From contig OX597818.1 of assembly GCA_951406725.2 (NCBI GenBank), forward strand, positions 40,982,001 through 41,046,000: 64,000 bases of DNA. Reading direction: 5' to 3'. Each line of letters opens with the position of its first letter. The stretch's first letter is position 1. The DNA comes from Octopus vulgaris. Its lineage: Eukaryota. Below are positions 723 to 63,072 of the stretch, one piece after another. A model generated the notes under the pieces. It was not told the DNA's origin, did no database searches, and worked only from the letters and a program-made list of their open reading frames with translations. A program made the position numbers and the translations under genes.

Positions 723-959
723 GGAAATCATCGTCTGACTGAAGTCTTCATTCGAAGGCTTGCAACCGTGTCCTGCGCTGAAAGTAATGATGCGACAGAG
801 TGGAGTAAAACCGGTTGACAGATGTGAAGAGGTATAACCGCATAGTGTCGGTCGCCTGATTAAATGTTCCGGTTTGGTCAGAGAAGAAAGAAGTTAAACA
901 TTGAAAACATGTTTTCAGACTTAAATTGCAGAAGCTTCGACCAGTTAGTTGCACTAAAA

Positions 960-1200
960 CTGAAAATGGGAGAGAGAGATGAGGAAAGGAGTAGATAATC
1001 CAGTATGGATCAGTAATAGATGGAGAAAGGTTTGTTCATATAGACGGTGTGTAGATCAAAGATATGACTAGAATAGTTTATGAAGTCAGTAGAGACACCA
1101 CAGGCTGGTAACAGAATCAGCCTGCATACGAGCAATGCTAGAACAAAAATGATTTGTGTACGTTGAACTCACCAAGAATGATGTTTATTAGAGAGGAGAG
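960..1200 (-). pseudogene. Degenerate LINE AP-endonuclease fragment
   Basis: Minus strand reads NIILGEFNVHK, resembling the APE motif ILGDFNxH. A SHIFDL stretch follows in another frame; many stops. Confidence 0.4.
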
Positions 1201-1327
1201 AGAGCGCGAGAGCGAGAGATCGAGAGAGATCTTAGCTGAGTTCACATGTAGTCCACCAACGCAGGCTGATAAATACGGCAATTGATGGTGGTGTGCAATA
1301 TACGAACAGTCATACGCGCATAAATTT

Positions 1328-1616
1328 GTGGAGGCACATGGCCTAGTGGTTAGAGCCGCGGACTCGCAGTCGAGGGATTGCGAGTTCAAATCTCAGACCA
1401 GGCGATGTGTGTGTTTATGAGCGAAGCACCTAAGCTCCACGCGGCTCTGGCAGAAGGTAATGGCGAACTTCTGCCGACTCTTTCGCCACCACTTTCTCTC
1501 ACTCTTTCCTCCTGCATCTTGCAGTTCACCTGCGACGAACCTATACGCCAAGGAAACCGAAAAGCGGTCCTTATGAGCTGGGCATGGCTCGAGAAGGAAC
1601 ACACAACAACATAACA
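1328..1616 (+). mobile_element. tRNA-derived SINE, family A (Arg-like head; possibly octopus OR-type)
   Basis: A-box tggcctagtgg, B-box-like gagttcaaatc, anticodon-like ctcgca. Near-identical copy at 40497-40802(-). TSD cataaattt at 1319-1327 and 1617-1625. Confidence 0.85.
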
Positions 1617-21667: not shown

Positions 21668-22184
21668 CAGCATATAAGTCATGTATTACAATCTTATGTA
21701 ATAAGCACTATGTCTAAAATTCGTAACTGACAGTTTGTTTAGCAAAGCATTATGAGCTGACTGGGGTAAGTATAATATAATGCTGTTTGTGTTATTCCTA
21801 TTGTTTATATTCTAAATAGAAATATTTCTTTTTTCCAGTCTCATGTGATTTGGTGAAAAGAGACAAGTAACAGGTAAGGAAAAATAGTTCTCTTTCATGT
21901 GCTTTAAATAACACACACACGCCTACATAATTAGGATTCAGTTGAATTAGGTACTTATTTTGAGACACCAAGTTAGCCCGGTAGTGTCCGCCCAGCTCGA
22001 AGTTAGGTGAATAAAGAGCAAATAAGTAACATGGACATACCCGGAGATACAATACTTGGAAATCTTTGTTAATTATTTGCTTCAGATATATATACATCCA
22101 TCAGGTCAATTAAATAAAGTCCTGGATTCATTGTAATCGATCGACTAAACTCCAACTCCAAAAGTTTATTTCGTCTCCTTTACA

Positions 22185-44931: not shown

Positions 44932-44979
44932 GTCTCTGACGAAGGGATTTATAAAATATCCCCGAAACAGCTGTAAGAC
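44932..44979 (+). ncRNA. Minimal type-I hammerhead ribozyme with intact core
   Basis: GUCU-CUGACGA-A-GGGAU(9 nt)AUCCC-C-GAAAC-AGCU-GUA/AGAC. Stem I is gtct/agac, stem III is the palindrome ACAGCUGU, and predicted cleavage is after 44975. Confidence 0.8.
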
Positions 44980-45392
44980 CTTTTCTTTATATATGTTCTG
45001 AAAACTACTTGCAGCCTTAGACTTTTTACTTCATTTTGTCAATTTACAGGATACAATCTATATTTGATTTTATCAGGTAGTCAGCATGTAATAACTACTT
45101 AAGGTAAAAAAATTAATAGAATATATAGTTTAATACGTATATCTATAAAACTATATTAAGAACAAAAAGCTAGTCTTACAAAAATGAATCTTTTCGTTTA
45201 TTTCCTCGCTTTCAGTGCATGGTTACATGAGGCAGTTTTGCGCCATTTAGCGCCTTCTTTCAACATGTGGCTTGGCTTGTAAGAATAGCCTTTTGCTCTT
45301 AATATGGTTTTATAAATATACTTATAAGATTATGTATTTTATAAATCCATATATATATATATCAAAATAAGGAACAAGGATATCCAGAGGTA

Positions 45393-45486
45393 ATATAGTA
45401 CGATCGTTTCATGCGACTCCATTTAATGGAACAATGCAATGATTTCATTACATCAATTTAAAATGTAGAGCAATCTTCAGCTGCAC
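45393..45486 (-). ncRNA. Type-I hammerhead with an enlarged stem-II region (family HH-F)
   Basis: Minus strand GUGCAG-CUGAAGA-(63 nt, UUGC...GCAU)-GAAAC-GAUC-GUA/CUAUAU. The paralog at 46558 has CUGCAU, which restores stem I. Confidence 0.65.
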
Positions 45487-45651
45487 AAATACATAGAATT
45501 TAATTAAATTAGGAAACATTGGTATAATTTTACCTAAAATCTCCAAGAGGATTACGATATAGACAAAGAACAATTACCATATTCATCTGAATCTAAATTT
45601 TTACTGAACCCATCCATATATACATATATATACATGCATACATGCATACAT

Positions 45652-46394: not shown

Positions 46395-46526
<132 letters not shown>

Positions 46527-46536
46527 CATATAAATT

Positions 46537-46668
46537 AAAATAAGCAACAAGGATATCCTGCATTACCTCTGGATATCCTTGTTGCTTATTTTGATTTTAA
46601 CCACCTTATTTTGAAATTGTATGGATAATTCTGGTGCCTCAACTTAAGTACTTTATTCATATGAATCT
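46537..46668 (+). mobile_element. HH-F element fragment with a 22-bp 5' inverted duplication
   Basis: Arms 46537-46558 and 46571-46592 are exact reverse complements. Homologous to 45362-45398(-) and 47650-47683. Confidence 0.75.
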
Positions 46669-46705
46669 ATACATACATATATATATATATACATATCTAT
46701 GTATG

Positions 46706-46761
<56 letters not shown>

Positions 46762-47614: not shown

Positions 47615-47899
47615 ATATATAGAGATATATATGAGTATATCTATATAGATTATCTCTGGATATCCTTGTTGCTTATTTGGATTATATATATAATTATATA
47701 TATATATATACGTGTAATCCAGATACATCTACAAATGTATTACATAATCCATATGTATGCATATATATATATCCACAAATATTGATTTATATATATATAT
47801 ATATATACATACATATTTTACAAGCATATTTTCATTGAAATTGTTTTTGTTGAGGGGAGACTACAGTTAGATCCATAGATAAATAGACAGAAAGATAAT

Positions 47900-62466: not shown

Positions 62467-62740
62467 CATACTCAGTCTCAATTTTGTTCTAATTTTATCT
62501 TTTCTTTTCCAATATCCCTATTTTTTTATTCTAACGCACTGGTCTATCATTTAATCTGGGCACATACAACTTAGTAGACTCCATCTAAGAATTTTATTCC
62601 GAAATATTATCAGGCTGTGGACGACTAAATTACAACAGGTATATAGCCCATAGTTTGTATTATAGTGCATTGTTGTACCATTCAAAACTTTTTATTCTTT
62701 ACAGACAATACACAATGCTTCAAGCGAACTACAATACTCT

Positions 62741-62789
<49 letters not shown>

Positions 62790-63072
62790 AGAGTATTGTA
62801 GTTCGCTTGAAGCATTGTGTATTGTCTGTAAAGAATAAAAAGTTTTGAATGGTACAACAATGCACTATAATACAAACTATGGGCTATATACCTGTTGTAA
62901 TTTAGTCGTCCACAGCCTGATAATATTTCGGAATAAAATTCTTAGATGGAGTCTACTAAGTTGTATGTACCCAGACTAAATGATGGACCAGTGCGTTAGT
63001 ATAATAACTTAGGGATATTGGAAAAAAAGATAAAATTAGAACAAAATTGAGACTGAGTATGTATGATGTATG

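What the first reader, a model, noticed from the sequence alone, without database searches (positions are those of the whole stretch)
46537..46592. Fold-back insertion starting exactly at the predicted ribozyme cleavage site
Seen: the copy at 45393-45486(-) predicts cleavage at GUA/CU(A)UAUUACCUCUGGAUAUCC. The copy here begins at ctgcattacctctggatatcc (46558), the first base after that cut, with nothing of the upstream ribozyme. It is preceded by a perfect 22-bp inverted duplication of its own downstream sequence, joined at the palindrome ggatatcc. Its CUGCAU also pairs with GUGCAG better than the other copy does. Inference: a self-cleaved RNA was fully reverse-transcribed and the cDNA then folded back or switched template. 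This would be a genomic fossil of ribozyme activity, though it rests on one copy.
Basis: partly seen in the sequence, partly recalled or inferred. Interest (0 to 1): 0.75.

Follow-up and report, generated by a model that had tools for sequence, protein, structure and literature searches.

The report
Penelope insertion starting at ribozyme cut
This is one head-to-head insertion of a common Penelope-type jumping gene, and across the genome such insertions start at the element's predicted hammerhead-ribozyme cut several times more often than expected, which likely records the ribozyme cutting some of the copied RNAs in the living animal.

Summary
The feature is a head-to-head pair of arms from the 3' end of an abundant Penelope-like retroelement (1,613 exact 27-mer matches in G000). 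That layout is published. It is not a fold-back: in 88 junctions one arm ends near +38 and the other usually beyond +105, each in its own microsatellite, as two separately primed cDNAs would. Inner arm ends pile up at the first base after the predicted cut (+1): 13 of 62 junctions against 1.1 expected, 10 of 46 against 3.0 in a sister subfamily with different sequence there, and 4 of 9 in an unrelated hammerhead family. Position -1 is empty in the first two sets, and some arms join blunt at +1/+1. About nine in ten copies read through the ribozyme, so cut RNA is a minority template. Other hot spots exist (+7, -70 to -74), so enzyme stalling and microhomology remain rivals; cleavage is untested. 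I found no paper reporting this pile-up in six searches. This scan noted similar hints in other genomes, with mixed verdicts.

The parts
46532..46558 (-). Short inverted arm: family positions +14/+15 to +40, ending at the usual proximal 3' end of the element
   Evidence: 96% to family majority over 27 nt; 79 of 88 short arms end at +35 to +44
46558..46558 (.). Junction base shared by both arms; first base after the predicted hammerhead cut (+1)
   Evidence: one-base overlap, partner starts +14/+15
46558..46668 (+). Long arm: family positions +1 to about +124, with a short internal deletion near 46627-46629, ending at the distal 3' end zone
   Evidence: 85% to family majority; end motif GAATCT then microsatellite; loose ends at 46627-46629
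46395..46531 (.). Left flank: (TG)n/(TA)n/(GA)n/(GATA)n microsatellite, likely the target
   Evidence: sequence; left boundary approximate
46669..46760 (.). Right flank: (TA)n/(TATG)n microsatellite, different from the left flank
   Evidence: sequence; right boundary approximate
45361..45572 (-). Sister copy of the same family, positions -177 to +38, holding the whole type I hammerhead (stem I 45486-45481 with 45398-45393; CTGAAGA 45480-45474; predicted cut 45399/45398)
   Evidence: 87% identity
45572..45615 (+). Inverted arm of the sister copy (from +101 to about +140): same head-to-head layout, junction far from the cut
   Evidence: right end approximate
47649..47686 (+). Third, tail-only copy (+5 to +42) between TA-rich repeats
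   Evidence: 92% identity

Best explanation
This is a head-to-head insertion of the 3' end of a Penelope-like retroelement, likely made by two cDNAs primed on the two strands of a cut microsatellite, one of which likely ran off the 5' end of an RNA that the element's hammerhead had cut. Steps. (1, shown) The arms belong to a family with a type I hammerhead at the end of a long AT-rich 3' region that follows an RT-like and a GIY-YIG-like frame. (2, shown) Each arm has its own outer end, one near +38 and one near +110 to +145. (3, inferred from published in vitro work on another Penelope element) The enzyme nicks both target strands and starts reverse transcription at these two internal sites. 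(4, shown as a statistic) Inner ends are enriched at +1/+2. (5, inferred) For a minority of templates, about 5-8% of copies that reach +9, the RNA had self-cleaved, so the cDNA stopped at ...AATGCAG-3'. (6, inferred) That 3' end annealed to, or jumped onto, the partner cDNA with 0-4 paired bases; here CAG on CAG (C-G, A.A, G-C) at +14 to +12. Host repair then closed the insertion.
For: Family size: 1,613 exact matches. Coding part: RT-like frame L125:5411-6784 and GIY-YIG-like frame L125:4058-4420 lie upstream of the shared 3' region; both match one 711-aa protein, P0001, in that order (36% and 35%). Ribozyme: core boxes kept and stem I changed on both sides in sister subfamilies (TTTTGG/CCGAAA, AATTGG/CCAAAT, ATGTGG/CTACAC). 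Two ends: short arm +35 to +44 in 79 of 88, long arm at or beyond +105 in 81 of 88, same end in 0 of 88. Peak, unfiltered sample: 8 of 97 copies start at +2 to -3 against 2.1 expected, P=0.0015, and none at -4 to -17. Peak, filtered genome-wide set: 17 of 97 at +1 against 3.5. Inverted junctions, main subfamily: +1 in 13 of 62 against 1.1 under a microhomology-plus-decay null; -1 in 0. Sister subfamily without the TGCA palindrome: +1 in 10 of 46 against 3.0, P=0.0007; +1 is the best spike position of 16 scanned; -1 in 0. Unrelated hammerhead family: an arm at +1 in 4 of 9 informative loci, one more ambiguous (read by eye). Both arms at +1 with no overlap: L232, L320 (3 extra bases), L419. No pair among 55 junction loci shared both flanks. 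Published: both strands cut and extended, two start sites (PMC11167929).
Against: About nine in ten copies that reach +9 run through the ribozyme. +1 is not the only hot spot: +7 holds 19 of 97, +8/+7 hold 12 of 46 in the sister subfamily, and -70 to -74 holds 6 in the unfiltered sample. The largest class (31 of 62 at +2) sits on a 12-base imperfect palindrome that pairs almost as well without any cut (-9.4 against -10.3 kcal/mol for the upstream palindrome), so it is not diagnostic. Most +1 joins share one G with the partner and could be +2. Nulls were built after seeing the data, and the sets overlap. The main subfamily has U.U instead of the usual G-C at the base of stem II, and the lone motif does not fold better than shuffles (z -0.64). 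No scars of jumping across the cut: 0 of 9 insertions there, 4-5 of 10 deletions touch it, no formal test. For the anole element, cleavage was not needed in vitro and no RNA reads ended at the cut. Pfam did not call the RT and gave GIY-YIG only E=0.01.
Confidence: 0.62

Rival explanations
1. Same two-primed Penelope insertion, but the RNA was uncut: the reverse transcriptase stalls on the folded hammerhead, and +1 is one of several stall points.
For: Other end clusters fall on ribozyme landmarks: +7/+8 is the 3' edge of stem I (19 of 97; 12 of 46) and -70 to -74 is the 3' edge of CUGAAGA (6 of 97). Unprocessed RNA was the dominant substrate for the anole element.
Against: A stop in front of stem III would leave ends at -1 (general knowledge of RT stops); -1 holds 0 of 62 and 0 of 46 inverted junctions and 4 of 97 in the filtered set. 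The +7 peak is also a TA site that matches (TA)n targets.
Confidence: 0.15
2. Ordinary 5' truncation plus microhomology; the match to the cut is a coincidence of local sequence.
For: GTACTGCATTAC is an imperfect palindrome centred 3 bases after the cut. The window's join and the GC[A/T]GC joins use a CAG/CTG near-match. Two of the four +1 joins in the third family have a 3-base overlap. With steep length decay, 19 TGCA against 3-4 upstream-palindrome joins needs no cut.
Against: Fitted microhomology-plus-decay nulls expect 1.1 and 3.0 at +1 against 13 and 10. The sister subfamily lacks the palindrome and keeps the peak; six of its ten have no overlap. Blunt +1/+1 joins exist (L232, L419).
Confidence: 0.12
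3. One reading: one cDNA ran off the cut RNA, folded back and copied itself.
For: The short arm duplicates sequence within the long arm, and the long arm starts at +1.
Against: Self-copying would stop at random or run to the long arm's end and into its flank. Instead short arms stop at the usual +35 to +44 end with their own flank (79 of 88; same end 0 of 88). Nineteen of 39 joins are loop-less palindromes, which a hairpin cannot prime. The cDNA ending at +1 has no stable hairpin (-1.1 kcal/mol).
Confidence: 0.05
4. Self-priming on an antisense transcript, as proposed for rotifer Penelope palindromes.
For: Arkhipova 2013 reads head-to-head palindromic joins this way (PMC3846280, passages).
Against: It does not predict two fixed outer ends or a peak at a sense-strand ribozyme cut.
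Confidence: 0.04
5. Terminal inverted repeat of a DNA transposon, or an assembly artefact.
For: Perfect short inverted repeat in microsatellite-rich DNA; no public contig laid spans this join.
Against: The join is unique, join positions vary between loci, arms face head to head without an interior, arms are unequal in a stereotyped way, and the family leads to RT-like and GIY-YIG-like frames.
Confidence: 0.02

Closest known systems
Endonuclease-positive Penelope-like elements with an inverted 5'-truncated copy and a one-sided tail (Craig et al. 2021, PMC8557442, passages read; Arkhipova et al. 2013, PMC3846280, passages read)
   Same: RT then GIY-YIG, hammerhead near the 3' end, head-to-head inverted arm with palindromic joins, extension at one end only, microsatellite targets, an Asn-rich stretch between RT and nuclease (L125).
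   Different: The two outer ends lie about 90-100 bases apart, not 30-40. The 3' region is about 3 kb with degenerate internal repeats. The passages read do not map inner join points on the ribozyme and call its function unclear.
Poseidon element of the green anole, PAc (Frangieh et al. 2024, PMC11167929; abstract, main text and start of methods read, supplements not read)
   Same: Both target strands cut and extended; reverse transcription starts at two internal sites downstream of the hammerhead; AT-rich targets.
   Different: There, cleavage was dispensable in vitro and no RNA reads began or ended at the cut. Here a minority of genomic arms do end at it.
Minimal and palindromic-stem-III hammerheads of Penelope elements (Cervera and de la Pena 2014, PMC4209133; results and discussion read)
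   Same: Type I motif with a palindromic stem III (ACGAUCGU) suited to a dimer; motif pairs on opposite strands were noted there.
   Different: Long stem II with U.U at its base in the main subfamily. They had low activity in vitro and state that in vivo evidence was absent.
R2 and L1Tc retrotransposons with 5' HDV-like ribozymes (review PMC6765202, passages read; mechanism otherwise recalled)
   Same: A ribozyme cut sets an RNA 5' end that can be read from genomic insertion ends.
   Different: Different ribozyme and enzyme; there the cut makes the full-length 5' end, here it yields short 3'-end stubs in a minority of insertions.
L1 twin priming (recalled; only search listings seen)
   Same: Both target strands prime, and the two cDNAs are joined by microhomology into an inversion.
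   Different: L1 arms copy non-overlapping parts and start at poly(A); here the arms overlap (+15 to +40 twice) and start at two internal sites.

Membership tests
Endonuclease-positive Penelope-like element | RT followed by a C-terminal GIY-YIG nuclease | tested here: met
   Broken frames in L125 match P0001 residues 237-471 (36%) and 586-676 (35%) in order. Pfam GIY-YIG E=0.01 and 0.024, below cut-off. Pfam RT not called. Atlas feature hits include RVT_1 clusters at 0.92-0.94, RVT_1 share 12-42%. Moderate strength.
Endonuclease-positive Penelope-like element | RT groups with Penelope-like RTs in a tree | not tested
   No named reference set was on hand; no clade is assigned.
Endonuclease-positive Penelope-like element | Type I hammerhead in the terminal repeat | tested here: met
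   no hammerhead family among the 150 Rfam rows shown of 356
Endonuclease-positive Penelope-like element | Inverted 5'-truncated copy adjoining the 5' end | tested here: met
   33 of 100 arms flagged, at least 4 of them false (TA)n hits; L125 has a 550-base inverted arm before the RT
Endonuclease-positive Penelope-like element | Tail present at one end only (two start sites) | tested here: met
   one short and one long outer end; spacing about 90-100 bases
Endonuclease-positive Penelope-like element | Direct partial-tandem repeats around a full-length frame | tested here: inconclusive
   No full-length copy among ten 10-kb stretches; not searched further
Endonuclease-positive Penelope-like element | Target-site duplication | tested here: inconclusive
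   Both flanks are microsatellite; no empty site available
Active hammerhead ribozyme | CUGANGA, GAAA and UH core with stem I | tested here: met
   84 copies; mean 5.4 of 6 stem I pairs; two-sided changes in 4 sister-subfamily copies. The scan required the core, so core presence is by selection.
Active hammerhead ribozyme | G10.1-C11.1 pair closing stem II | tested here: not met
   Main subfamily has U.U there; one sister copy has G-C and two have G.U
Active hammerhead ribozyme | Self-cleavage at the predicted site | not testable with these tools
   Only indirect: excess of arm ends at +1
Animal non-LTR retrozyme | Short non-coding unit in tandem, one hammerhead per unit | tested here: not met
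   The family continues about 3 kb upstream into coding frames
L1-type twin priming | Non-overlapping inverted segments and a poly(A) start (definition recalled) | tested here: not met
   Arms overlap; ends run into (TA)n, no poly(A)

The most novel reading that the evidence does not exclude
Penelope insertion joins are a fossil record of hammerhead self-cleavage in the animal germ line: cut RNA is a real template, two cDNAs that run off its 5' end are joined end to end, and the height of the +1 spike gives a per-family measure of ribozyme activity in vivo from genome sequence alone.
Probability: 0.55. Interest if true: 0.68.

Novelty: new member of a known kind. Interest (0 to 1): 0.52.

Why it matters
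What the hammerhead does in Penelope-like elements is open: Craig 2021 calls it unclear, Cervera 2014 had no in vivo evidence, and Frangieh 2024 found cleavage dispensable and no RNA ends at the cut. A spike of insertion ends at the cut would show that cleavage happens on RNA that the retrotransposon copies. It would also suggest that cutting limits rather than drives copying, since those products are short stubs and most copies read through. The stereotyped short-plus-long arm pair supports priming from both target strands over antisense self-priming as the source of Penelope inversions. Both points can be tested with an existing in vitro assay and with any large assembly.

Tried and rejected
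Rfam scan: only microsatellite-driven miRNA hits among 150 rows shown of 356. Frames in the first 1.4 kb upstream of the ribozyme: none. The RT fragment downstream in L033 did not align with the L125 RT and is treated as another element. PDB sequence search: nothing useful. No RNA holder listed among public runs; contigs of X1-X4 hold the family, but none listed spans this join, which proves nothing. First subfamily-B tally was wrong because the reference came from one copy; redone with a four-copy majority. The TGCA-against-GTAC contrast (19 against 1 of 39) looked decisive but was set aside because of the 12-base imperfect palindrome. Scars of jumping across the cut: not found. An A after +1 (10 of 10 in the sister subfamily) may be a non-templated base, but partners are A-rich; not tested. 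Apparent 5' ends near -107, -111 and -179 are subfamily divergence and lie outside the +9 to -100 range used. Lunse et al. 2016 was not held; seen only as a reference.

Full report
Numbering. +1 is the first base after the predicted cut (C of CTGCAT), -1 the base before it.

1. Observation. The 22-bp arms are exact and the 34-base join is unique in the 2.8-Gb genome G000. The forward arm follows the family from 46558 to about 46668 (+1 to +124); the inverted arm covers +14/+15 to +40. Base 46558 fits both arms. The copy at 45361-45572 (-) holds a type I hammerhead: GTGCAG, CTGAAGA, a 63-base stem II region, GAAA, CGATCG, TA, then CTATAT. That copy has its own inverted arm joined at -177/+101, and a third copy at 47649 starts at +5. 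So the window alone shows that inverted joins need not lie at the cut.

2. The family. The 27-mer has 1,613 exact matches; I fetched all 100 listed places. Upstream of the ribozyme lie about 3 kb of AT-rich sequence with degenerate internal repeats and no frame in the part translated. In L125 this follows broken RT-like and GIY-YIG-like frames with an Asn-rich stretch between them; parts of the same coding region adjoin the family in L126, L128 and L131. Both frames match one database protein in the right order. Profile support is weak and no tree was built. Stem I of the ribozyme is kept by two-sided changes in sister subfamilies; stem III is a palindrome that pairs as a dimer (-12 kcal/mol) and not alone. 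The base of stem II is U.U in the main subfamily.

3. Not a fold-back. Among 88 tight inverted joins in the loci then held (collected by searches aimed at inversions; one locus counted twice), the shorter arm ends at +35 to +44 in 79, the longer at or beyond +105 in 81, and none has both ends alike. Single copies end in the same two zones before (TA)n. This matches the one-sided tail and inverted copy described by Craig 2021 and Arkhipova 2013 (passages) and the two-strand, two-site priming shown by Frangieh 2024. Two separately primed cDNAs joined at their 3' ends is the simplest reading; that step is inferred.

4. (a) Unfiltered: 100 arms from contig C1, 97 after dropping two second views and one duplicate. 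Eight start at +2 to -3 against 2.1 expected from the +9 to -100 background (P=0.0015), none at -4 to -17; the next best 5-base window outside is -70 to -74 with 6. (b) Genome-wide set selected for ends between +8 and -11: 105 matches, 100 listed, 97 analysed; +1 has 17 (one is this window) against 3.5 under a null that includes the filter, +7 has 19 against 4.9. (c) All 39 joins where both arms reach +5, read by eye: 19 at TGCA (+2 to +5), 4 GC[A/T]GC, 1 at GTAC with a substitution, 3 at ACGATCGT plus 1 ambiguous, 11 other. (d) 68 rows, 62 loci, main subfamily: deepest end +2 in 31, +1 in 13, -1 in 0, -3 in 6, any other position 3 or fewer. A null with fitted microhomology weight and length decay expects 17.2 at +2 and 1.1 at +1. 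(e) Sister subfamily (CCAAAT after the cut, no TGCA): 58 rows, 46 loci; +1 in 10 against 3.0 (P=0.0007), +2 in 1, -1 in 0, +8 and +7 in 6 each; +1 is the best of 16 spike positions, about 8-fold. (f) Unrelated minimal-hammerhead family of window 44936-44979: 18 loci, 9 reach within 5 bases of the cut, 4 have an arm at +1 and one more is ambiguous (by eye). Among 55 join loci, 23 pairs shared a short stretch on one side and none shared both flanks. Sets (a)-(d) overlap in part and the nulls are my own, made after seeing the data.

5. What the peak means. The +2 class is not diagnostic: it sits on a 12-base imperfect palindrome. The +1 class needs no such help. It includes joins with one shared base (this window, L178, L190, L300, L304), GC[A/T]GC joins that fit two cDNAs both ending in CAG paired across an A.A mismatch, and blunt +1/+1 joins (L232, L419; L320 with three extra bases). 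A defined cDNA end at +1 explains all of them. RNA cleavage is the direct source of such an end. Stalling on an uncut fold is the main rival, because +7 and -70 to -74 also mark ribozyme edges; it would rather favour -1, which is empty in (d) and (e). Copies that cross the cut show no clear scars, so they likely come from intact or precisely rejoined RNA. Neither arm is preferred at the cut (long 9, short 6 in the main subfamily).

6. Print and earlier notes. Six searches and the texts named under Closest known systems, plus part 1 of 5 and passages of the 2026 retrozyme preprint, gave no report of insertion ends peaking at a Penelope hammerhead cut. Subscription papers and supplements were not seen. 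This scan has noted two-site priming in other families of this genome and the cut-site idea in several other genomes, with verdicts from 'over-used' to 'coincidence'. My reading was formed before those look-ups; they are unchecked notes.

7. Verdict. The insertion is a new member of a known kind. The single copy proves nothing, but the pile-up it points to is real in this genome and repeats in three sequence contexts. Cleavage as its cause is likely but untested. Interest 0.52.

Noticed in passing
window 44932-45050 (+): Copy of an unrelated minimal-hammerhead family (GTCT CTGACGA ... GAAACAGCTGTA/AGAC); 28 exact 19-mer matches in G000, many diverged relatives, also with inverted joins.
   Followed up: partly
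window 62662-62868: Long near-perfect inverted repeat (about 80-bp arms) around a (TA)n centre, seen as miRNA-model hits.
   Followed up: no
window 21929-22038 (-): Diverged relative of the family's 3' end (+16 to +128, 71%).
   Followed up: no
L122-L131, 3' region upstream of the ribozyme: About 3 kb AT-rich region with degenerate internal repeats about 850 bases apart, about 70% identical; unusually long for such an element.
   Followed up: no
L125:4480-5076 (-): Asn/Asp-rich low-complexity frame between the RT and the nuclease, like the N-rich inserts described in rotifer Penelope elements.
   Followed up: no
family positions -70 to -74 and +7/+8: Further clusters of 5' ends at the 3' edge of CUGAAGA and of stem I; possibly stalls on the folded ribozyme or TA microhomology.
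   Followed up: partly
L033:1-318 and 782-1409 (-): RT fragments of a different retroelement directly downstream of a family copy's tail.
   Followed up: partly
L308, L321, L322: The same join GGTTATTCC recurs at three loci of the sister subfamily, with 4 unmatched bases; unexplained.
   Followed up: no
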